DNA from: Escherichia phage tonnikala
Sequence record: NC_049817.1
Length of the DNA: 51,277 nt
Direction: 5' to 3' (one strand)
Position 1 is the first letter of the stretch; every line of letters starts with the position of its first letter. The translations under genes and the position numbers were made by a program. Below the pieces are notes generated by a model. That model was not told where the DNA came from. It did not search any database and saw nothing but the letters and a program-made list of their open reading frames with translations. This document shows positions 4,645 to 45,735 of the stretch, piece by piece.

Positions 4645-4663
4645 TAGCACTTTTTGTTAAAAC
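4645..4663 (+). promoter_or_regulatory. conserved intergenic motif copy
   Basis: Immediately follows TAA stop; hairpin GCCCGGC...CGGGC and CATAAT downstream. Confidence 0.45.
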
Positions 4664-4719
4664 GCCCGGCCTAGTGTCGGGCATAATTATTTCAACGAAG
4701 CAAACATGAGGAAATAAAA

Positions 4720-10874: not shown

Positions 10875-10927
10875 GATCAGATCTCCTTTGTTTGTTCGAT
10901 GTGATTATGCCAGGTTTTTACACCTGG

Positions 10928-10946
10928 CTTTTAACAAAAAGTGCTA
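10928..10946 (-). promoter_or_regulatory. conserved intergenic motif copy (minus orientation)
   Basis: Reverse complement TAGCACTTTTTGTTAAAAG; overlaps stop of the methyltransferase-like gene. Confidence 0.4.
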
Positions 10947-11654
10947 TTTTGAGTTTGACTCAAAGATGGCGCGAGCAAAGCCGCGCGGAGTGAGGGAGCG
11001 GATCATCTTTGTGCGCGATGACTTACCGCCAGTTTTGGCCCAGCCTGGATTATCTTTGTCTTCCTCTTTCGGCAGGATTAAAGCGCGCGGAGGAATAACA
11101 AAGCCGTTGCCAGTCCAGAGGCACGTTTTCTTAAAATAGCGATCCCGTGCCGGAATAATATCAGGGAAGTCGGGATGTTTATCATCTTCCGGCAGATAGC
11201 CAGCGTAATCGCACGGATGGAACGTATAATCAGGCTTACGCCATAACGTTGACAACTTGCCAACCGGATTTTCGATCATGTAAGGAACACCGAAATAATC
11301 AGCTATATCAGCCGCGATTCTGCAAGTGTCGGCGGCCTCATCCTGGAATGATGGATTCTCAAGGCGTTTTTTGGCCCAATGGCGAGATCCGCTATTTGCA
11401 AGGTCGGTGCATGGTGGGAAGGCCATAATAAAATCAGGATTGCCCCACTCATTATTGATTGCCTTAACATAAAAAGCATCATCAATCCAGACGTTAACGT
11501 ATTCGATATTCTCATGCTGTATGCGCACTGACTGGTAATCACCGTGATCGCCACCGTCAGCATTAAAGCAAATGCACTTATAGCCATTATCAGCCCAATC
11601 TTTAACGGCTTTACCAGATCCATCAAATAGGGAGAATATTAAACCTTTATACAT
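10944..11654 (-). CDS. DNA C5-cytosine methyltransferase-like protein (short, atypical)
   Basis: Motif I-like SLFDGSG, catalytic Pro-Cys (AFPPCTD), ENV-like MIENPVG; start set at MYKG with GAGG RBS. Confidence 0.55.
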   Translation of the reverse strand: MYKGLIFSLFDGSGKAVKDWADNGYKCICFNADGGDHGDYQSVRIQHENIEYVNVWIDDAFYVKAINNEWGNPDFIMAFPPCTDLANSGSRHWAKKRLENPSFQDEAADTCRIAADIADYFGVPYMIENPVGKLSTLWRKPDYTFHPCDYAGYLPEDDKHPDFPDIIPARDRYFKKTCLWTGNGFVIPPRALILPKEEDKDNPGWAKTGGKSSRTKMIRSLTPRGFARAIFESNSK

Positions 11655-11664
11655 CGTCATTACC

Positions 11665-11889
11665 TCAAAACGGAAAACAGCGCGCACAACCAGGATCGAA
11701 ATCGCATCCACAATCATTAACAATCATAGTGGGATCTGCAAATATTGCGCTTGATTCAAGATCCATATCCATATCACCTAAAGCCTCATCAAGAGTCTTA
11801 ATTTTATATGCCACTTCAAGCGCCGCCTCTTTATTTAGTCCGGCATCTTCTGCCATTTGAAGGCGCTCAAAAAAACCGTCTTGACTCAT
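11665..11889 (-). CDS. hypothetical acidic protein
   Basis: 74 aa; acidic, Cys-rich C-terminus. Confidence 0.45.
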   Translation of the reverse strand: MSQDGFFERLQMAEDAGLNKEAALEVAYKIKTLDEALGDMDMDLESSAIFADPTMIVNDCGCDFDPGCARCFPF

Positions 11890-14410: not shown

Positions 14411-14664
14411 TTTTTCTTCTCCTGCAATAAGCAAATATCATTGATAAAATCAGCACGGCCCTTAATGTTGCTGATGTGAAACGTCTTTTCAGCGTACAGG
14501 CCATCACCTTCAATCACGATCATTACGCGAGTCGGTTTATTCACGGGCGCACACGAAAAGAGTGGTCGCGCCGGAAGAAATTTAGTAGCCACATCCAGGT
14601 TAGCCCTGGCGGCCCTGCAAAACGCCTCCGCCAGATCCAAATCATTTTCGGTAATCACCGCCAT
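14398..14664 (-). CDS. hypothetical protein
   Basis: 88 aa. Confidence 0.45.
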   Translation of the reverse strand: MAVITENDLDLAEAFCRAARANLDVATKFLPARPLFSCAPVNKPTRVMIVIEGDGLYAEKTFHISNIKGRADFINDICLLQEKKKCWM

Positions 14665-14936
14665 TACTTCTTGATCTCCTCACTGATAAATTTCAGCACC
14701 TGACGCAAGAAAACCTCGTTGTTGATAGTCGCTGGCAATTCTTCTTTCACTTCTTGCGGCAGATAGATATTGCCGTGCCAGGTCAAGCAATCGTAGTTGA
14801 TGCGATAAGAGCAAAGCCACTCGCAATCGTTATCTGCTTCCCAAATGCAGAGTTGCAGAACATCGCCGAAGTCTTCAACAGTCAGATCCAGACCGTGACG
14901 CTTAGCGAAATTGAAAGTGGTTTTGCTGATGTTCAT
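14664..14936 (-). CDS. hypothetical protein, first gene of leftward early operon
   Basis: 90 aa; AGGAG RBS 6 nt upstream of ATG at 14936. Confidence 0.5.
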   Translation of the reverse strand: MNISKTTFNFAKRHGLDLTVEDFGDVLQLCIWEADNDCEWLCSYRINYDCLTWHGNIYLPQEVKEELPATINNEVFLRQVLKFISEEIKK

Positions 14937-14994
14937 TGCTATCTCCTGAGCGGTTCGTTTCGATGTGTGTAATGTACCCGATCAGGTGGCCTGA

Positions 14995-15013
14995 GTTTTA
15001 ACAAAAAGTGCTA
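14995..15013 (-). promoter_or_regulatory. conserved intergenic motif copy heading the leftward early operon
   Basis: Reverse complement TAGCACTTTTTGTTAAAAC, then 18 nt, then TACATT (-10-like), then RBS and ATG at 14936. Confidence 0.45.
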
Positions 15014-15036
15014 TTTGACGGTTAGCGCCAGGATTG

Positions 15037-15135
15037 TGATCGAAATAATCAGAAGTAATCATTCGTAATCGAATCACGTCAAAATGATGATTGCCTTTGC
15101 AAATTTGATGAGAAAAGTAATCACGTTTAATCATT
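15037..15135. repeat. iteron-like cluster of TAATC-containing short repeats
   Basis: TAATC pentamer five times in about 90 bp (GTAATCA, CGTAATC, GTAATCACG, TTAATCA), beside the divergent promoter hub. Confidence 0.35.
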
Positions 15136-15569
15136 GGTTGCAGGGGAGATAGTGAAACCTTCCCCTCTTGCCTCACTTTTCCGCCTGGCTGTCAGTGGCT
15201 GTTGTCTTTTGTTCGCCCCTGTTACCGATTTCAGGCGGCGTGTTTCCGCGAGGTTTTCCGGTGTAGCGAAAACGGAAAAAACAAAAAAAATCCTATATAA
15301 TACATTGAAAATAAAGATTATTTATTTATATATATCTATAATGTTTTCTTTTTGTTCTCACTGTTACAGTGCTTTTTGCTGGGTGTGGTGTGGTTGTGTG
15401 TTGGTATATATGGATAGTTGCGCGCGCGGCGGATTGCATATGTATATATACTTTTTCCGGCGGATTGCGTTAACAGCGTGAACAGAAAAATAACAGCCCT
15501 GAAATCAACAACTTGCGCATGATTTTGTAGTTTTTCGATATTGGTAACGTTTTGAATACAACAAAAACA

Positions 15570-15597
15570 TTGACACGCACCAAATAGCTTTTATAAT
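15570..15597 (+). promoter_or_regulatory. sigma-70-type promoter for rightward early operon
   Basis: TTGACA (15570-15575), 16-nt spacer, TATAAT (15592-15597); about 30 nt upstream of the first rightward gene. Confidence 0.55.
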
Positions 15598-15628
15598 GCG
15601 CCAACAGTCAACAACTGGAGGAAAGGAA

Positions 15629-16093
15629 ATGGAACAGAAGACCACTAAGGACTATTGCGATTGGCTTCGCGAGCTTGGTCGCCGCCTGGCTAGTGGCGAT
15701 ATTGAAGAGTATAAAATGTCACTAATTGACCTGGCCGGAATGTTAAGCGGTGACGACTGCTACAAGATCACGCGCAGTTCATCCTACAGCCGGACCATTA
15801 TCAACCGCGTTCCAGAAGTAAGGGCCGCAGGTCGGGTAAGCATCAAGGTAGAGGAAACGGAAGATGATAAATTTTACGTTTTCCGCATGGTCCGAGAATC
15901 GAAAAGGAAAATCATCACGCCCGAAGAATTGCCAGCCATCAAGGCAAGGGCGATCAAAAAGTTTGCCGATCGCTTACTGGCAGCAATCCCGAACATCGTG
16001 GACCTGGAAGGGGATAAACTGGCTGGAGCTTGTGAGGGCGTAAGCCGCTACCAGGATATGATCCGCGAAATCATCAAAGAGGAGGAGCAATAA
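15629..16093 (+). CDS. hypothetical protein, first gene of rightward early operon
   Basis: Start set at MEQKTTKDY with GGAGG RBS; the track start at 15596 lies inside the promoter -10. Confidence 0.55.
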   Translation: MEQKTTKDYCDWLRELGRRLASGDIEEYKMSLIDLAGMLSGDDCYKITRSSSYSRTIINRVPEVRAAGRVSIKVEETEDDKFYVFRMVRESKRKIITPEELPAIKARAIKKFADRLLAAIPNIVDLEGDKLAGACEGVSRYQDMIREIIKEEEQ

Positions 16094-16365: not shown

Positions 16366-16381
16366 CACTTTTTGTTAAAAC
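16363..16381 (+). promoter_or_regulatory. conserved intergenic motif copy
   Basis: TAG of motif is the stop codon; hairpin GCCAGGC-GCGAA-GCCTGGC then CATAAT 18 nt downstream. Confidence 0.45.
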
Positions 16382-16437
16382 GCCAGGCGCGAAGCCTGGC
16401 ATAATAGCCTCATCGAAACGAGATTGAGGAAACAAAA

Positions 16438-16922: not shown

Positions 16923-17537
16923 ATGTTAAAACTTGCTGACATTAAATTCCCGATCACTTTCGAATCTCGTGGCGTTGGTCATTACATTTTTACCGATGAG
17001 AAAACATGCCATAACGTTTGGTTGCACAGCGATAAGCCAAGCCCATCAACAATGGAGATTCAGCACTTCATTGATGCGCATAATCAGCACTACAACTCAA
17101 TCCGTGACTACGGCTACGCAATGCCAGGCTACACATGCTTGCACTACAAGCCATATAAGGGCCAGGTGTTACCAGTGCGCTCGCCGGAACGCGCAGAGAT
17201 TCCGATGGTCCACATGAAAACCTGCGACTACAAAAAGCTGTGGTGCTTAAACGTGGACAATATCAAGTATCCGATCACGTTCCGCTCCGCTGGTAATTCA
17301 ACGATTCGCTACACATCGCGCGACAATGGCGTTTATAGCAATGGTCAGAAATCAGGGTTTAAGGTGGATTTCTTTGTTAATGGTCATAATAAATACAATC
17401 CGCACAATGAAAAGATAAGATTTACTATGTGGAAGACATTACAAAACACTTATTTGGAGAAACACCATTCGGCGGCGGAAAGACGTCAATTCAAAAAATC
17501 ATTGGCGAGGAGATCCACAAAGCGGCTGCCGAAATGA
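16923..17537 (+). CDS. hypothetical protein with internal tandem-duplicated domain
   Basis: 204 aa; two related segments (IKFPITFESRGVGHY... and IKYPITFRSAGNSTI...); C-terminus overlaps next ORF. Confidence 0.45.
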   Translation: MLKLADIKFPITFESRGVGHYIFTDEKTCHNVWLHSDKPSPSTMEIQHFIDAHNQHYNSIRDYGYAMPGYTCLHYKPYKGQVLPVRSPERAEIPMVHMKTCDYKKLWCLNVDNIKYPITFRSAGNSTIRYTSRDNGVYSNGQKSGFKVDFFVNGHNKYNPHNEKIRFTMWKTLQNTYLEKHHSAAERRQFKKSLARRSTKRLPK

Positions 17538-17815
17538 AAGCGCCTGGAGGATGGCGTATTGATAAGAGCGCCTTTGCAAATCAAGAAATCGTAACGAAGG
17601 GCGCGATTGAAGATATGCCAGTTGCAGCTACTCTAAAAGGAGTCCGGCTTGATGACGGCACCTGGTTTGAAGTAACGGCTACACCAAAGACGATCGAGAT
17701 TCATGATGACGTTGTTATTCTTCTGCTTCACTACGGCGGCTATAAAAACCGGACGGTTGCAGGTGAGATCAGCATCAAGCGCGGAACGATGGTTAAGTGG
17801 AAGGTGAAGATTTGA
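17429..17815 (+). CDS. hypothetical protein (GTG start in track; overlaps previous ORF by about 108 nt)
   Basis: 128 aa ORF in another frame; true start uncertain, possible frameshift relationship with upstream ORF. Confidence 0.35.
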   Translation: MEDITKHLFGETPFGGGKTSIQKIIGEEIHKAAAEMKAPGGWRIDKSAFANQEIVTKGAIEDMPVAATLKGVRLDDGTWFEVTATPKTIEIHDDVVILLLHYGGYKNRTVAGEISIKRGTMVKWKVKI

Positions 17816-17891
17816 GTTTGTTCACTGCGGCGCACGTCGCCGCATGGATCGGATTGTTTGCCTACCTGTTTAGCTTTTATTGAGGTGAGAG

Positions 17892-18044
17892 ATGGCTACC
17901 TGGATTTTGCTGATTCTTATGATTGATGGCGGCGTTGACCATATCGAAATGAATAGCCAGCAATCTTGCATTGAGGCACGAGAGCAGATCAAGAACAACA
18001 ACAGGTTTTATGCGTACACTCACACGCTATGTATTAAGAAATAG
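17892..18044 (+). CDS. hypothetical small protein (50 aa, below track cutoff)
   Basis: ATG after GAGGTGAGAG; hydrophobic N-terminus MATWILLILMIDGG; stop TAG is part of the next motif copy. Confidence 0.3.
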   Translation: MATWILLILMIDGGVDHIEMNSQQSCIEAREQIKNNNRFYAYTHTLCIKK

Positions 18045-18060
18045 CACTTTTTGTTAAAAC
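18042..18060 (+). promoter_or_regulatory. conserved intergenic motif copy
   Basis: Followed 17 nt downstream by TATAAT inside a GGCCAGG...GGCCC inverted repeat. Confidence 0.45.
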
Positions 18061-18113
18061 TCAAATGTTGGGCCAGGTATAATGGCCCTGCTTTCAACGA
18101 AGGAGATAAAACG

Positions 18114-18551
18114 ATGTACATTAAAAAGAAGATGAAATGCGTTTCCGTTAACTATGCTTGCTCTGGCATGTTCAAGCCTGGCGAAATCTATACGGCGCAA
18201 AAACTGAAAACATCAACCGGATCTTTTTACGTGAGCAATAGTAAGGGGCATCGCATGTTCCTGAACGGCGGCGAAGGCACTAAGGTTATGGCACACGCTA
18301 TGGTAATGGCTGAATTTGAGGAAGTGAAAGATGAAAACAATAAGCGCGTCAAGCACAGGTTTACTGATAACCACGGCGACGCGATTGATGTATACAAGTT
18401 CGGCGATCGCGTGTTTATTGATGGCACGTTTGAATGTGGGCGTAGGCCGGATTTTAGGTCGATACTTACCGTTGACCAAGTGCGCAAGCTGGCAGATAAG
18501 TTAAATGATCTGGCAGATGAAATAGAATACAAACAAATCCATTTTAATTGA
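18114..18551 (+). CDS. hypothetical protein
   Basis: Start set at MYIKKKMK with AGGAG RBS; 145 aa. Confidence 0.5.
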   Translation: MYIKKKMKCVSVNYACSGMFKPGEIYTAQKLKTSTGSFYVSNSKGHRMFLNGGEGTKVMAHAMVMAEFEEVKDENNKRVKHRFTDNHGDAIDVYKFGDRVFIDGTFECGRRPDFRSILTVDQVRKLADKLNDLADEIEYKQIHFN

Positions 18552-18562
18552 TAGGTTTGATA

Positions 18563-19273
18563 ATGAAAAAATACACTTTCGAACTGTGGGGCAAGAAGTA
18601 CGAATTAATCACCAGCAAGCCGATTGTTATCGTTGACCTGGACGGAACACTATCGGACGGATCGCATCGTTTGCATTTGCTGCCAACTGAAAACTTGCAC
18701 CTTACGGAATCGTGGCGCGAGTTTAACAGGGCCGCCGCCGGAGATTCACCGATTAAAAGCACTATCGCGGTTATTAACGGTTTATGGGTGTCGGGATTTG
18801 CCATCGTCATCTTGACCGGACGCAGCGACGAGGTTCGCTATGAAACCTGCAAATGGTTGAATGAGAACGGCGTGAAGTTTGACGAAATCATCATGCGCCG
18901 CCAGGAGGACAACCGAAAGGATACGGTTATTAAAGAAGAAGCCTTGCGCGCTATTGGCCTGGACAACATTGTTTGCGCCTTTGACGATTCGCCGAACGTG
19001 GTTAAGCACTTCCGCAGCTTGGGGATCACAACCTATCAGGTCACGGAATACGACAAGCCACACGCTCACATACAATCTCACGGCGTGGAATCAATAAAGA
19101 TCACGAAGCGCGCCCTATTCGTCGGCAGCAAAGACAGCCTGGTCAATGCCAGCTTTATCAAAGGCAAGGTTTATGATGTTCATAGCCATGATAAAAACCG
19201 ATTCTTTTTGTGGGATGAAAAAGGTTTTGGCTGGTGCTTTGAACACGACGACGGCGATTTTGTTAATGCGTAA
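18563..19273 (+). CDS. HAD-superfamily phosphatase, polynucleotide 3'-phosphatase-like
   Basis: HAD motif I VIVDLDGTLSD, motif II ILTGRSD, motif III K...AFDDS; extra C-terminal domain of about 70 aa. Confidence 0.6.
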   Translation: MKKYTFELWGKKYELITSKPIVIVDLDGTLSDGSHRLHLLPTENLHLTESWREFNRAAAGDSPIKSTIAVINGLWVSGFAIVILTGRSDEVRYETCKWLNENGVKFDEIIMRRQEDNRKDTVIKEEALRAIGLDNIVCAFDDSPNVVKHFRSLGITTYQVTEYDKPHAHIQSHGVESIKITKRALFVGSKDSLVNASFIKGKVYDVHSHDKNRFFLWDEKGFGWCFEHDDGDFVNA

Positions 19274-20778: not shown

Positions 20779-20794
20779 CACGAATTGCTAAACG
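20776..20794 (+). promoter_or_regulatory. conserved motif variant (TAGCACGAATTGCTAAACG)
   Basis: TAG is the kinase stop codon; hairpin GCGGGG...CCCCGC then TATAAT. Confidence 0.4.
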
Positions 20795-20848
20795 CGGGGT
20801 TATCGGCCCCGCTATAATGCGCGCATCAACAAGTAAGAGGAAATCACA

Positions 20849-24192: not shown

Positions 24193-24720
24193 ATGGCTAA
24201 AAATGTTGAGCCTGCTGTAAAGGCATTAAATTTCAAAGAGTTATATAATAAAACCTATGGCGATATTGTTACGCTAAACAACCGCCACAAGTACACGCCG
24301 GAACAGGTTTTTGATATGGCGATCCGCTATTTCACTTGGGCCGAAGAGAATCACATCCAGGCGGCTGAAACTGCCTCCTTTCAGGGTGACGTGTACGAGA
24401 GCAGGGTTTACAAGCCTCGCGTTTTCACGGTAAACGGATTCAGCTTGTATCTCGGCGTTACTGAGGCGGCTGTAAGCAAGTGGCGTAAAGAGCCTGGATT
24501 CTGCGATGTGATGGAGTTTGTTGATAAAGTAATTTACGAGCAAAAATTCCAGCTTGCGGCAAACAACATGATTAACGCTGGATTTATCGGTAAAGAGATC
24601 GGAGTAGAGAAGCCAGCAACAGTGAGCGTTGAAGCGAGCGCGGCAGCTAATGCAAGCATTGACGCAGTAACTGCCGATGAGGTGAAAGAGGCTGTGATTG
24701 ATATTCTGGAGCAACTTTAA
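24193..24720 (+). CDS. terminase small subunit
   Basis: Start at MAKNVEP with AAGGAGG RBS; immediately upstream of and overlapping the large terminase. Confidence 0.6.
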   Translation: MAKNVEPAVKALNFKELYNKTYGDIVTLNNRHKYTPEQVFDMAIRYFTWAEENHIQAAETASFQGDVYESRVYKPRVFTVNGFSLYLGVTEAAVSKWRKEPGFCDVMEFVDKVIYEQKFQLAANNMINAGFIGKEIGVEKPATVSVEASAAANASIDAVTADEVKEAVIDILEQL

Positions 24721-26288
24721 TGATCATATGGGAAGATTTGACGGCGGCGCAAAAGCGAGCCATTAAAGAAATCAGTGAGCATTCATTCGAAAAGATGATC
24801 AGAATCTGGTTCCAATTATTGCAGGGGCAAAAATTCCAGAGCAACTGGCATTTTAGCTTATTGTGCAGTGAGGTAGAGAAGATCATCAATGGAGAGTCGC
24901 AGAATGTGATTTTCAACATTACGCCAGGTAGCGGCAAGACTGAGATTTTCTCGATCCACATGTCACCCTACGCGTCATTGAAAAGCCGGAAAGTGAGAAA
25001 CCTTAACCTTTCGTTTAGTGATGGCCTTGTCCAGCAAAACAGCAACCGGATAAAGGAGATTATTGGTTCTCCTGAGTGGCAAGAGCTATGGCCTGGAAAA
25101 CTGGCAAAGGCGAGCGCTAAAGATCTGATAGTCACCGAAGGCGGCAAGGTTAAATTGCAAGTTAACTCACGTTCTATTGGCGGCCAGGTAACAGGTTTGC
25201 GTGGCGGCTATATGGATGATGGTTTTACTGGTATGCTGGTTCTTGACGATCCAGACAAGCCGGATGACATGCTTTCTAAGGTCAAGCGCGAGGCTATTCA
25301 CATGCGGTTAAAAAACACAGTGCGATCGCGTCGAATGAAAGACACCACGCCAATCGTTATGGTGCAACAGCGACTACACGTTAATGATTCCACTTGGTTC
25401 ATGCTTAATGGCGGGATGGGTGGTATTGAGTTTAAAGTCGTGAGCATTCCGGCGCTGGTTACGAAAGAATACCGCGAAACGCTTCCTGATTGGTTGAAGT
25501 CTGAATTTGATCGTGATGTGCTGTCAAGTAAGCCAGTGATGATAGATGGTGTTGCTCATTATTCATTTTGGCCTGCGAAGGAAAGCGCGGAGGAGTTGCT
25601 CGCATTGCGCAATGCAGATCCTTACACGTTCGCCAGCCAATACCAACAGCAACCAATCGCGCTGGGCGGGAACGTGTTTAAAACAGAGTGGTTCCAGTAT
25701 TACGGCAGCGGCGAAAAATGCGCACTTCCTAAACCGGATCGCTTTGAATACACATTTATTACTGGAGATACCGCGCAGAAGGCCGGAGAGCTTAACGACT
25801 ATTCAGTTTTTTGTTATTGGGGGATGTATAAGAATCGCGTTTACTTCATTGATGGCATTCGCGGAAAGTGGGAAGCGCCGGATCTTGAATTAAATTTTAT
25901 TGCCTTCGTTAACCAGTGCTGGAAGCGCAATAAGGAGTGTGGCAGCTTGCGACGTATCCACATTGAGGATAAGGCCAGCGGCACGGGTTTGATTCAGGGG
26001 GCCAAAAAGAAGATCCAGATTGATATAAATCCCGTTCAGCGAAGCAATGACAAGGTAACGCGAGCAATGGACGCCGCGCCAGTGATGAGGGCAGGACGTG
26101 TGGCGCTGCCAGAAAATCACCCAATGCTGCCTGAGATACTGGCAGAGGTTGCAGCATTCACTTTTGATGATTCTCATCCCCATGATGATATTGTCGATAA
26201 TATAGTTGATGCTGTTAACGTCGAAATGAATTTGGCAGATGATCCGGTAGCAAGGATGAAAAAGCTGGCAGGTCTACGCAATAAATAG
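24720..26288 (+). CDS. terminase large subunit
   Basis: 522 aa; Walker A-like ITPGSGKTE in N-terminal ATPase region; precedes portal. Confidence 0.8.
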   Translation: MIIWEDLTAAQKRAIKEISEHSFEKMIRIWFQLLQGQKFQSNWHFSLLCSEVEKIINGESQNVIFNITPGSGKTEIFSIHMSPYASLKSRKVRNLNLSFSDGLVQQNSNRIKEIIGSPEWQELWPGKLAKASAKDLIVTEGGKVKLQVNSRSIGGQVTGLRGGYMDDGFTGMLVLDDPDKPDDMLSKVKREAIHMRLKNTVRSRRMKDTTPIVMVQQRLHVNDSTWFMLNGGMGGIEFKVVSIPALVTKEYRETLPDWLKSEFDRDVLSSKPVMIDGVAHYSFWPAKESAEELLALRNADPYTFASQYQQQPIALGGNVFKTEWFQYYGSGEKCALPKPDRFEYTFITGDTAQKAGELNDYSVFCYWGMYKNRVYFIDGIRGKWEAPDLELNFIAFVNQCWKRNKECGSLRRIHIEDKASGTGLIQGAKKKIQIDINPVQRSNDKVTRAMDAAPVMRAGRVALPENHPMLPEILAEVAAFTFDDSHPHDDIVDNIVDAVNVEMNLADDPVARMKKLAGLRNK

Positions 26289-44068: not shown

Positions 44069-44683
44069 TTAATCATAGTGTGATGCATTTATAACCAAAA
44101 CAGATGAAGCGGTGTAAATACCAACAGGTCCAGGGGTTTGTGCAACCTGCCTGGAAAAAGAGTAGATCCCGTTACCATACGCGGCAGCTTGAGACTCAAA
44201 AATCATAAATCCACCTAAAGCCGGATTAGGTACAGAGTTTAACGCTGTTAGTGATGGCATTATTGCGCAAGGGTAGCCCAGGTTAACATCAAACGCGATC
44301 CCGCTCACACCAACTTGCTTTGCATCAAGCGGCCTCATTTTTCCATGATAAACCATTTCACCATGAGCGTTATAAAACGCTATGCCGTGACTACCTGGAG
44401 GAGTCACCATGTTACTAAAAGCATAAACAATAACCTCCCCTTGATTATCAGATCTATCAATTCTTATTGCGTGCCTTCCACCATTGTTAAATTGCGTAAA
44501 TGATATGTATGATTTAGCAGTCAATCTAACAAAGAAAAAACATACCCTATCAACAGGAATTGACGAAGTAAAAACGGTTCCGGTATTAGCAGATATTACT
44601 GCCCGATCAATTAGATTAACTGGAGTGAAATCTGGACTTAACCATAACGATCCGTCTGATTTTTTTATACTCATCCCGTACAT
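44069..44683 (-). CDS. hypothetical protein (leftward module adjacent to tail genes)
   Basis: Start set at MYGMS with GGGGGTGA RBS; 204 aa; shares short sequence pattern with upstream 92-aa protein. Confidence 0.5.
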   Translation of the reverse strand: MYGMSIKKSDGSLWLSPDFTPVNLIDRAVISANTGTVFTSSIPVDRVCFFFVRLTAKSYISFTQFNNGGRHAIRIDRSDNQGEVIVYAFSNMVTPPGSHGIAFYNAHGEMVYHGKMRPLDAKQVGVSGIAFDVNLGYPCAIMPSLTALNSVPNPALGGFMIFESQAAAYGNGIYSFSRQVAQTPGPVGIYTASSVLVINASHYD

Positions 44684-44685
44684 TA

Positions 44686-44964
44686 TCACCCCCAAAAAGT
44701 ATATATATATCTTGAATCAGATCCAGAAAGCCCACTCCATGTAACGGTGTCGCCACTTACCCCTAAGTTTGGCGCCCCAGGGTCGCCACCGCGCCAGGAA
44801 TTCATGCCAACATATATTGCTTTCAATGATTTACCTGGCGGCCTGTTTTGGTAAGTCTTGCTACCTGATGGCTGAGTGAATTTATCAAGAAAGAAAACAG
44901 GCGTTAAAAGTCCTGTAACTTCCCTCCCTCGATCGTCATATATTGCATAACCATATTGCGCCAT
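44686..44964 (-). CDS. hypothetical protein
   Basis: 92 aa, Gly-rich. Confidence 0.45.
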   Translation of the reverse strand: MAQYGYAIYDDRGREVTGLLTPVFFLDKFTQPSGSKTYQNRPPGKSLKAIYVGMNSWRGGDPGAPNLGVSGDTVTWSGLSGSDSRYIYTFWG

Positions 44965-45239
44965 TAATTACACCTCAAATCAATAAATTTACTTTCATTT
45001 TGCCAGCGGTTGATAAATTTAACTTCTTTATTGTCAACGCTCAACCTGTATTGCTTTTGGCTGAATCTGTTTTCGCGGACTGCATTAATTTTGACCTCAT
45101 GGAATCCGTTAACAGGGAATGTTTTAACGTTAAATTTTGCCGTGCAATCGATCTCTTTGAAGCCGCCAGTAGGCGACGCTGCGCATCCGGTCAGAGCGGC
45201 TACGGTGGCGATAACTGCGATTAATTTTTTCATCTTCAA
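44964..45239 (-). CDS. lipoprotein, candidate superinfection-exclusion protein
   Basis: Signal peptide plus lipobox (MKKLIAVIATVAALTGC); first gene of leftward operon next to tail-tip genes. Confidence 0.55.
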   Translation of the reverse strand: MKMKKLIAVIATVAALTGCAASPTGGFKEIDCTAKFNVKTFPVNGFHEVKINAVRENRFSQKQYRLSVDNKEVKFINRWQNESKFIDLRCN

Positions 45240-45288
45240 TACTCCTTAGTTGTCGTTGCCTGTAACTATACACGATCCGACAAGCGGC

Positions 45289-45306
45289 GTTTAGCAAAAA
45301 GTGCTA
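45289..45306 (-). promoter_or_regulatory. conserved motif copy (minus orientation, variant) heading leftward operon
   Basis: Reverse complement TAGCACTTTTTGCTAAAC, then 18 nt, then TATAGT, then AAGGAG RBS and ATG at 45239. Confidence 0.45.
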
Positions 45307-45677
45307 CTTGTTATTTTTTGTTTTTCGGTGTTATCGAATTTAAGACGGCGTAAATTTAGCTCAAATTTTAGCCAACATGAGAGCGATAAACAATCAATAA
45401 AATAGATATATACATATAAAATCAATAGTTTATTTATTTATGTATGTATATTTGTTTTTTCTTGTTATCTGTGTTTCTTGTGGTTTTGGTTGTTTGTGGT
45501 GATTTTTCTTTCTGAGTATCTGTATGTGCCATCATTCATGTGTATGTATATAATCCGGCGTATCTGAGAGAACAAAGGGAACAAGAAAAATAACACATAT
45601 TAATCATTGACTTACATTTCAAATTTGTTTTCTTGCAATCTAAGAACGTTTAGAAAACAGAAAAAACAAAACAACTA

Positions 45678-45705
45678 TTGACTAAATCAACCAAATGGCT
45701 ACAAT
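45678..45705 (+). promoter_or_regulatory. sigma-70-type promoter for rightward recombination operon
   Basis: TTGACT, 16-nt spacer, TACAAT; shares CCAAAT(A/G)GC spacer with the promoter at 15570. Confidence 0.5.
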
Positions 45706-45735
45706 GCACACACAAAGCAACAAGGAGCATCAAAG

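What the first reader, a model, noticed from the sequence alone, without database searches (positions are those of the whole stretch)
15037..15135. Iteron-like TAATC repeats and TTTTCCG / CGGCGGATTGC direct repeats around the leftward early promoter
TAATC-containing heptamers occur five times within about 90 bp just upstream of the leftward promoter. Nearby, TTTTCCG occurs three times and CGGCGGATTGC twice (15425-15469). Clustered short repeats beside divergent promoters are typical of operator arrays or origin iterons.
Basis: seen in the sequence. Interest (0 to 1): 0.45.

Follow-up and report, generated by a model that had tools for sequence, protein, structure and literature searches.

The report
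Phased TAATCA repeats beside pac cut
The five TAATC repeats are real and lie on one face of the DNA helix, but they most likely mark where this T1-like phage's packaging enzyme recognises and first cuts its DNA, not a repressor-binding or replication-origin array.

Summary
The window is a complete T1-like phage genome (Drexlerviridae, Warwickvirus). The finding lies in its 692-bp divergent intergenic region, 14937-15628.

Only the TAATC cluster beats chance: five copies spaced 10, 10, 52 and 10 bp, all on one helical face. CGGCGGATTGC x2 is marginal. TTTTCCG x3 is at chance level.

Three records from different laboratories (XY3, G29-2, haarsle) are opened within 10 nt of each other. The break lies inside a conserved element, GGGGAGAT|AGTGAAAC (15143-15158), 17-19 nt right of the last TAATCA. 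The T1 and TLS records and a PhageTerm terminus for phage MSK also start in the homologous stretch.

The array occurs in exactly 59 of 50,697 phage records. These are the same 59 that carry this window's small-terminase allele; neighbouring genes have different distributions.

Best reading (about 0.5): the array is the terminase-recognition arm of the pac site. Operator, origin-iteron and no-function readings remain possible.

The "leftward promoter" is one copy of the T1-family 21-nt repeat. That repeat matches the E. coli MarA/SoxS/Rob marbox in class II geometry.

The parts
15037..15041 (+). Degenerate sixth copy (TGATC), 9 nt left of the first TAATC. It reads TAATC or CAATC in some relatives.
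   Evidence: L142 has GTAATCG here; L161 has GCAATCG.
15046..15071 (+). Distal triplet of TAATC(A) repeats, starting at 15046, 15056 and 15066 (10-bp spacing).
   Evidence: Intact in all but one of the 17 type-A sequences examined; L160 has CAATC in the second copy.
15078..15117 (.). Invariant 40-bp spacer between the triplet and the pair. It contains ATGATGATTG (15084-15093, an inverted TGATTG) and the palindrome TTGCCTTTGCAA. It is homologous to the point where the T1 and TLS records begin.
   Evidence: Only one variable column (15112) across 17 relatives. T1 ends ...ATGATGAGATGTGATT| and TLS ends ...ATGATGATTGATGTGTG|.
15118..15133 (+). Proximal pair GTAATCA-cgt-TTAATCA (starts 15118 and 15128). 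The last copy ends 17 nt left of the cut.
   Evidence: A TAATCA motif lies 17-19 nt from the cut in Hanrivervirus (TTAATCAnnTGATTAA) and in WaterSpirit (TGATTAATCA).
15143..15158 (+). Conserved element GGGGAGATAGTGAAAC, the inferred pac series-initiation cut site (cut near 15150-15152).
   Evidence: The XY3 record ends ...GGGGAGATA and restarts GTGAAAC. G29-2 ends ...GGAGGGGAT and restarts AGAGAAAC. haarsle (also held as IMG/VR contig L140) starts GAGGGGATAG. The predicted hairpin here is not supported.
14996..15014 (-). Copy of the T1-family 21-nt repeat (ATAGCACTTTTTGTTAAAA). It is the upstream element of the leftward promoter and matches the marbox consensus.
14971..14976 (-). -10-like hexamer TACATT of the leftward promoter, 19 nt downstream of the repeat.
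24193..24720 (+). Small terminase (TerS, P22 gp3 family), the candidate protein that binds the array. TerL follows at 24720-26288.
   Evidence: Pfam PF16677 and PHROG 606. This allele is present in exactly the 59 records that carry the array.
15427..15468 (+). Two copies of CGGCGGATTGC (15427-15437 and 15458-15468) flanking an AT-rich 20-mer. Of marginal significance; function unknown.
   Evidence: Not conserved in WaterSpirit, PaulSarasin, Sip or PeterMerian.
15177..15459 (+). Three scattered TTTTCCG copies (15177, 15254, 15453). Not beyond chance as a repeat family.
15570..15597 (+). Perfect sigma-70 consensus promoter (TTGACA-16-TATAAT) for the rightward early genes. Context only, not part of the array.
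   Evidence: conserved in relatives.

Best explanation
The TAATC(A) array (15037-15135) is the terminase-recognition arm of this phage's pac site.

Proposed mechanism:
1. The five repeats (three distal, two proximal) lie on one face of the helix.
2. They are bound by the oligomeric small terminase encoded at 24193-24720. This bends or wraps the DNA.
3. That positions the large terminase to make the first cut of a packaging series about 17-20 bp to the right, inside GGGGAGAT|AGTGAAAC (15143-15158).
4. Headful packaging then runs rightward.

Shown: the array is non-random and helically phased; recorded genome ends cluster in or beside it; it co-occurs with one TerS allele; different lineages carry different repeat sets at this position.

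Inferred: that TerS is the protein that binds the repeats, that the DNA is wrapped, and the exact cut chemistry.
For: 1. The repeat cluster and its 10.25-bp phasing exceed chance.

2. Genome ends map here.
- The T1 record, whose terminal redundancy is annotated as 1-2800, starts 82 nt right of the homologous leftward repeat.
- The TLS record starts at its restriction-mapped pac site (PMC11447400), 119 nt right of the repeat. That point is inside a GATT-repeat array sharing ATGATGATTG with the window.
- The PhageTerm terminus of phage MSK (position 36,862; PMC8421802) lies 149 nt right of the repeat.
- XY3, G29-2 and haarsle, from China, Germany and Denmark, are opened within 10 nt of each other in the conserved element right of the array.
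- The G29-2 authors linearised contigs where most reads ended abruptly (PMC6563267).

3. The array is present at 95% identity or more in exactly 59 phage records and absent otherwise. The window-type TerS gene shows the same all-or-none pattern (59 records at 95% or more, the next best at 76% or less). The two sets are identical.

4. Neighbouring genes do not share that distribution.
- The left flank is found in 62 records at 95% or more, 21 at 90-95% and 44 at 80-90%.
- TerL is found in 53 records at 95% or more.
- The right-flank gene is replaced in PeterMerian, which keeps both the array and TerS.

5. WaterSpirit has flanks about 95% identical, a 65%-identical TerS, and a different cassette exactly between 15020 and about 15170.

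6. TerS is of the P22 gp3 family, and T1-like phages package by pac-initiated headful packaging (PMC11447400, PMC7718038).
Against: - No binding or cleavage data exist.
- Record starts are indirect evidence of physical ends. The T1 and TLS starts were set at low resolution and lie about 55 nt left of the XY3/G29-2 break.
- T1, Hanrivervirus and WaterSpirit share TTATTCC/GGAATAA repeats at this position although their TerS proteins are only 54-68% identical. Repeat type therefore does not simply track the TerS lineage.
- The 59/59 co-occurrence could reflect clade structure rather than function.
- Substitutions among 17 relatives do not significantly avoid the TAATCA cores: 2 of 19 variable columns fall in them against 4.6 expected.
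- From my own knowledge, the known pac site of the P22 gp3 family is a single asymmetric sequence of about 22 bp, not a phased array.
- The array also sits directly upstream of a promoter.
Confidence: 0.5

Rival explanations
1. Transcriptional control array. The repeats are binding sites for a phage regulator (for example the Cro/YdaS-like helix-turn-helix protein at 596-1072) or for a host factor. That factor would modulate the leftward promoter at 14971-15014 or a rightward transcript starting near 15150.
For: The array lies immediately upstream of the leftward promoter. In Hanrivervirus the homologous position carries a true palindrome, TTAATCA-nn-TGATTAA, with invariant halves and a variable centre, which is typical of dimeric regulators. 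A helix-turn-helix regulator is encoded in the genome.
Against: The sites span -70 to -165, outside the core promoter. The roughly 18 other promoters of the same type carry no such array, and TAATCA does not cluster anywhere else. No candidate sigma-70 promoter overlaps the repeats. This reading does not explain why genome ends fall here, or the exact co-occurrence with TerS.
Confidence: 0.2
2. Replication origin. The repeats are iterons for an initiator, working with the AT-rich block at 15276-15345 as the unwinding element.
For: It is the largest intergenic region, at a divergent transcription point and at the local minimum of cumulative GC skew. An AT-rich block conserved across genera lies 150 bp away. 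The origin of T1-like phages is unknown (PMC11447400).
Against: The repeats have 5-7-bp cores rather than 17-22-bp units. There are no DnaA boxes in the region. No lambda-O-like or Rep-like initiator was found among 60 open reading frames. GC skew simply follows gene orientation. The AT-rich block is duplicated at 45.4 kb and, in Tlsvirus, matches only the tail/exoVIII intergenic region, so it is not tied to the array.
Confidence: 0.08
3. Architectural DNA only. The phased A/T-rich repeats create a bend or a nucleoid-protein site (H-NS, Fis or IHF) with no specific cognate phage protein.
For: The phasing is 10.25 bp and the segment is 68% A+T.
Against: There is no IHF core consensus in the array. 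The all-or-none cassette replacement between lineages suggests sequence-specific recognition rather than general curvature.
Confidence: 0.07
4. No function. The repeats are remnants of local duplication in a tolerant intergenic spacer.
For: Substitutions do not significantly avoid the cores. Two of the three repeat families in the finding are at or near chance.
Against: The cluster and phasing statistics argue against this. The region is 95% identical or better across 59 records while the sequence to its right diverges. The 15078-15117 core is almost invariant.
Confidence: 0.1

Closest known systems
Bacillus phage SPP1 pac site (pacL-pacC-pacR), bound by the small terminase G1P
   Same: Short repeated boxes on the non-packaged side, helically phased or bent DNA, a cut site a short distance away, and one-directional headful packaging (from my own knowledge of the SPP1 literature). 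Here the array lies on the left, non-packaged side of the cut at 15150-15152, and packaging runs rightward as in T1.
   Different: SPP1 pac overlaps the TerS gene, whereas here the site is about 9 kb from TerS. The TerS families differ (P22 gp3-like here). No pacR-like arm has been identified. Nothing has been shown biochemically.
Phage P1 pac site (hexamer TGATCA/G repeats, 4 + 3, flanking the cleavage region)
   Same: Two clusters of a short repeat flank a 50-bp central region that corresponds to where the T1 and TLS records begin. The degenerate copy at 15037 is TGATC, which contains GATC.
   Different: P1 cleavage depends on Dam methylation of the hexamers and on IHF (my own knowledge). 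Here only one repeat contains GATC, and no IHF consensus lies in the array. The higher-resolution ends lie right of both clusters, not between them.
Phage P22 / Sf6 pac sites (gp3-family TerS)
   Same: The TerS family is the same (PF16677). Reported ends are scattered over tens of base pairs, 15093 to about 15163 in window coordinates.
   Different: The P22 pac site is one asymmetric sequence of about 22 bp inside gene 3 (cited in PMC11447400). It is not a phased array in an intergenic region.
Operator arrays of phage repressors, and plasmid or lambda origin iterons
   Same: Clustered short repeats in a divergent control region.
   Different: The repeats do not overlap core promoter elements. 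There is no second cluster elsewhere. The unit length and the lack of an initiator do not fit iterons.

Membership tests
pac site of a headful-packaging phage | The phage encodes TerS and TerL and belongs to a group that packages by pac-initiated headful packaging. | tested here: met
   TerS matches PF16677 and PHROG 606, with TerL adjacent. T1 and TLS use headful pac packaging (PMC11447400).
pac site of a headful-packaging phage | Physical ends of first-packaged genomes map at or next to the site. | tested here: met
   The evidence is indirect, from database record ends and published termini: T1, TLS, MSK, XY3, G29-2 and haarsle. No reads of this phage itself were examined.
pac site of a headful-packaging phage | The site is unique in the genome. 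| tested here: met
   No second TAATC cluster exists. A self-BLAST of the intergenic region finds no second copy of 15020-15170.
pac site of a headful-packaging phage | The site co-varies with its cognate small terminase. | tested here: inconclusive
   There is 59/59 co-occurrence with one TerS allele, and neighbouring genes are distributed differently. However, TTATTCC-type repeats are shared by lineages whose TerS proteins are 54-68% identical, and clade structure is not excluded.
pac site of a headful-packaging phage | TerS binds the site, and the site is sufficient to initiate packaging. | not testable with these tools
   This needs EMSA or footprinting and a plasmid-transduction assay.
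Operator array of a phage transcriptional regulator | The sites overlap or abut the -35/-10 elements of the regulated promoter. | tested here: not met
   The repeats lie 32-118 nt beyond the upstream element of the leftward promoter. No sigma-70-like promoter overlaps them.
Operator array of a phage transcriptional regulator | The same motif recurs at other co-regulated promoters. | tested here: not met
   TAATCA and GTAATCA are scattered elsewhere with no second cluster.
Iteron-type replication origin | Three or more direct repeats of about 17-22 bp, an adjacent AT-rich unwinding element, DnaA boxes, and an initiator gene nearby. | tested here: not met
   The repeat cores are 5-7 bp long. The AT-rich block is 150 bp away and is duplicated elsewhere. 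There are no DnaA boxes, and no initiator family was found among 60 open reading frames.
Class II marbox (MarA/SoxS/Rob) promoter, tested for the 'leftward promoter' repeat at 14996-15014 | Match to the marbox consensus GCANNWWNTGNNAAA. | tested here: met
   There are 19 exact matches in the window against 1.4 expected, and 18 of them are the 21-nt repeat. The consensus is taken from PMC12052159.
Class II marbox (MarA/SoxS/Rob) promoter, tested for the 'leftward promoter' repeat at 14996-15014 | Forward orientation, overlapping the -35 position, centred near -41. | tested here: met
   A -10-like hexamer sits at a fixed 20 nt after GCA..AAA in 14/19 (window), 14/20 (T1), 12/15 (PeterMerian) and 12/17 (WaterSpirit) sites. 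This places the box at -50 to -31. The geometry is taken from PMC12052159 and PMC8811837.
Class II marbox (MarA/SoxS/Rob) promoter, tested for the 'leftward promoter' repeat at 14996-15014 | Binding and activation by MarA, SoxS or Rob. | not testable with these tools
   No AraC-family domain was found in 60 phage open reading frames, so a host factor would be needed. This is untested.

The most novel reading that the evidence does not exclude
The roughly 150-bp cassette of phased repeats plus the GGGGAGAT|AGTGAAAC cut element would be a swappable pac-specificity module that co-evolves with the small terminase across Drexlerviridae. It abuts a promoter of a class that T1-like phages use about 19 times per genome. 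That promoter is a textbook class II marbox, which would mean these phages drive much of their transcription through the host stress activators Rob, MarA or SoxS. This would answer the open question of what the T1-family 21-nt repeat does. It would also place packaging initiation and a host-activator-dependent promoter on the same 200 bp of DNA.
Probability: 0.3. Interest if true: 0.8.

Novelty: new member of a known kind. Interest (0 to 1): 0.5.

Why it matters
The pac site of T1-like phages has been placed only roughly, by restriction mapping or by a guess from P22 similarity or ATATA repeats (PMC11447400, PMC8421802). This analysis narrows it to a nucleotide-level candidate: a cut element plus a phased recognition array, with a cognate TerS allele. 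That candidate can be tested directly, and it bears on generalized transduction, genome annotation and the engineering of these common laboratory contaminants.

The side observation that the family-wide 21-nt repeat is a class II marbox gives a concrete answer to a question the 2024 TLS paper lists as open. It can be tested by genetics.

Tried and rejected
- **Rfam scan of the region:** only sub-threshold chance hits (Ocean-V at 24 bits against a 75-bit threshold).
- **Hairpin at 15140-15170:** I first read this as a conserved hairpin. The DNA fold has a z-score of 0.01 and the covariation term is -0.08, so I now treat it as a conserved sequence element, not a structure.
- **Host-factor motifs:** no IHF consensus in the array and no DnaA boxes in the region. 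Fur, CRP and RcsAB comparisons by eye gave nothing.
- **GC skew:** it follows gene orientation and cannot locate an origin.
- **AT-rich block 15276-15345 as pac site or origin:** it is duplicated at 45.4 kb and sits elsewhere in Tlsvirus, so it is not specific to this locus.
- **TerS lineage against repeat type across genera:** no simple correspondence.
- **Selection on the TAATCA cores:** the test on 17 relatives had too little power.
- **Wasted viral-contig scans:** The corrected scan gave only 7 loci.
- **Papers not held:** the T1 genome paper (Roberts 2004) and the Rtp paper (Wietzorrek 2006). How T1 position 1 was set is therefore unverified.
- **The look-up of encoding contigs:** it returned only full-length contigs, which say nothing about ends.

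Full report
**Context.** The window is a complete genome of a T1-like phage (Drexlerviridae, Tempevirinae, Warwickvirus). It is 97-99% identical over this region to JLBYU19, mar001J1, FritzSarasin and others. The finding lies in the 692-bp divergent intergenic region 14937-15628. To the left is a leftward block of small early genes, starting with 14664-14936. To the right is a rightward block whose first gene is 15629-16093, a DUF7174 protein.

**Observation.**
- TAATC starts at 15046, 15056, 15066, 15118 and 15128, giving spacings of 10, 10, 52 and 10 bp.
- In Markov-1 simulations of the region, any 5-mer reached five copies in 95 bp in only 13 of 2000 runs. With the array's own composition, none of 5000 runs reached four TAATC.
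- The five copies share one helical phase (resultant 0.99 at 10.25 bp per turn).
- In relatives the unit is TAATCA. The window's third copy, TAATCG, is the exception in 16 of 17 sequences. A degenerate sixth copy at 15037 (TGATC) reads TAATC or CAATC in some relatives.
- CGGCGGATTGC x2 is marginal: p is about 0.1 anywhere in the region and 0.015 within 60 bp. It is not conserved beyond the closest relatives.
- TTTTCCG x3 is at chance level: 44% of simulations contain some 7-mer three times.

**The "leftward promoter".** Just left of the array, at 14996-15014 on the minus strand, lies ATAGCACTTTTTGTTAAAA.
- This is one of about 19 copies in the window of the 21-nt repeat described for TLS, T1, Rtp and Rogue1. 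It is always co-directional with genes, about 76 nt before start codons, and its function is listed as an open question (PMC11447400).
- Aligning the copies shows a TATAAT-like hexamer at a fixed 19 nt downstream. The same sharp offset appears in T1, PeterMerian and WaterSpirit.
- The repeat is therefore the upstream element of a phage-wide promoter class. The TAATC array sits at about -70 to -165 from one of these promoters.

**What lies at the same position in relatives.** Alignment of six lineages and inspection of more show a discrete cassette between the conserved leftward repeat and a conserved element, GGGGAGATAG(T/A)GAAAC.
- The window type carries the TAATCA array.
- Hanrivervirus, WaterSpirit and T1 carry TTATTCC x2 / GGAATAA x2.
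- TLS carries a tandem TAGACCGATTGGTC x2 plus a run of GATT repeats.
- MSK carries TTGCA/TGCAA repeats.
- One feature is shared by the window type, Hanrivervirus and WaterSpirit: a TAATCA motif 17-19 nt left of the GAT|AG position. In Hanrivervirus it forms a palindrome, TTAATCA-nn-TGATTAA, with invariant halves and a variable centre.

**Genome ends.**
- The T1 reference record annotates its terminal redundancy as 1-2800 and begins inside this intergenic region. The start is 82 nt right of the leftward repeat, just after ATGATGAGATGTGATT.
- The TLS record begins at its restriction-mapped pac site, 119 nt right of the repeat, just after ATGATGATTGATGTGTG. The window has ATGATGATTG at 15084-15093, in the 52-bp gap of the array.
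- The PhageTerm terminus of MSK (36,862) lies 149 nt right of its repeat.
- At higher resolution, three records from different laboratories are opened within 10 nt of each other inside the conserved element. XY3 ends ...GGGGAGATA and restarts GTGAAAC. G29-2 ends ...GGAGGGGAT and restarts AGAGAAAC. haarsle starts GAGGGGATAG.
- The G29-2 authors state that they linearised contigs where most reads ended abruptly.
- By my rough estimate, once one such break is seen, the chance that two more among about 90 distinct genomes fall within 10 nt of it is below 1e-3.
- I therefore take 15150-15152 as the likely first cut of a packaging series, with packaging running rightward as in T1.

**Link to the small terminase.**
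- The array segment 15020-15142 is present at 95% identity or more in exactly 59 of 50,697 phage records, with nothing weaker.
- The window's TerS gene (P22 gp3 family) is present at 95% or more in exactly 59 records, and the next best match is 76% or less.
- The two sets are identical.
- Controls behave differently. The left flank grades through 62, 21 and 44 records in the 95%+, 90-95% and 80-90% bands. TerL, adjacent to TerS, reaches 95% or more in only 53 records. The right-flank gene is replaced in PeterMerian, which keeps the array and TerS.
- WaterSpirit has a left flank about 95% identical, but its TerS is 65% identical and its cassette is different.
- This is what a cognate site-protein pair would look like, although clade structure is not excluded.

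**Against the pac reading.**
- TTATTCC-type repeats are shared by lineages whose TerS proteins are only 54-68% identical.
- Substitutions among relatives do not significantly spare the TAATCA cores, while the spacer 15078-15117 is the most invariant part.
- From my own knowledge, the P22-family pac site known from experiment is a single asymmetric sequence.
- No biochemical data exist.

**Rivals.**
- Regulatory array. This is plausible because of the adjacent promoter and the Hanrivervirus palindrome. However, the sites are outside the core promoter and recur nowhere else.
- Origin. There are no DnaA boxes and no initiator gene. The skew follows transcription. The AT-rich block is duplicated at 45.4 kb.
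- Architectural DNA, or no function at all.

**Comparison with known systems.** In architecture the site most resembles SPP1 pacL-pacC or the P1 pac repeats, while the TerS family is that of P22. I file it as a probable new member of the pac-site kind, not as a member of any specific pac family.

**Side finding.**
- The 21-nt repeat matches the published marbox consensus GCANNWWNTGNNAAA exactly. There are 19 sites against 1.4 expected, and 18 of them are the repeat.
- It lies in forward orientation, with the 20-bp box ending 18 bp before the -10 hexamer. That centres it near -41, the class II geometry reported for micF.
- No AraC-family domain was found in 60 phage open reading frames.
- One literature search for marbox together with bacteriophage and Rob found no paper on T1-like phages.
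- If host Rob, MarA or SoxS act here, this explains the repeat.

Noticed in passing
window 1084, 3573, 4644, 10255(-), 10929(-), 12965(-), 13692(-), 14996(-), 16362, 16825, 18041, 19273, 20775, 22069, 26285, 30911(-), 34664(-), 45289(-): The T1-family 21-nt repeat (function listed as unknown in PMC11447400) exactly matches the E. coli MarA/SoxS/Rob marbox consensus. It sits in class II geometry, with a -10 hexamer at a fixed 20 nt after GCA..AAA. The same holds in T1, PeterMerian and WaterSpirit. No AraC-like protein is encoded by the phage.
   Followed up: partly
window 45234-45735 compared with 15268-15600: There is a second divergent intergenic region, between cor and exoVIII. It carries a paralogous AT-rich block (TTATTTATTTATrTATrT), a G+T-rich stretch, AACA repeats and a near-consensus sigma-70 promoter (TTGACT-16-TACAAT, 45678-45705). 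Each copy also holds one of the genome's nine IHF core-consensus matches (15503-15515 and 45420-45432). In Tlsvirus the block matches only the tail/exoVIII region.
   Followed up: partly
window 15342-15366 and 15471-15495: Inverted TGTT(C/A)TC...CTGTTA / TAACAG...GAACAG motif sets flank the G+T-rich and AT-rich centre. Sip and PeterMerian have TTGTTATC / GATAACAA at the same places, a matching change on both arms.
   Followed up: no
window, for example 4663-4682, 10910-10928(-), 16381-16399, 20794-20812: In many repeat-type promoters, the 19-nt spacer between the repeat and the -10 hexamer is a G+C-rich inverted repeat (for example GCCAGGcgcgaaGCCTGGC). Its role is unexplained.
   Followed up: no
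window, whole genome: The genome is a mosaic. Most of it is 97-100% identical to PeterMerian at protein level. However, 10944-11723, 16923-19273 and 44069-45239 are WaterSpirit-like and absent or divergent in PeterMerian.
   Followed up: partly
window 14982-15176 (-) and 15134-15481 (+): These mechanical open reading frames cover the array and the cut element. Some relatives' records (WaterSpirit and several others) annotate small hypothetical proteins here. They are probably spurious calls over a non-coding pac/promoter region.
   Followed up: no
L146:1092-1123 and L145:1-60 (phage TLS): At the position homologous to the TAATC array, TLS has a tandem TAGACCGATTGGTC x2, followed across its record start by a dense run of GATT repeats (TGATTGAAATTGATTTGATTTGATTAGATTTG).
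   Followed up: no
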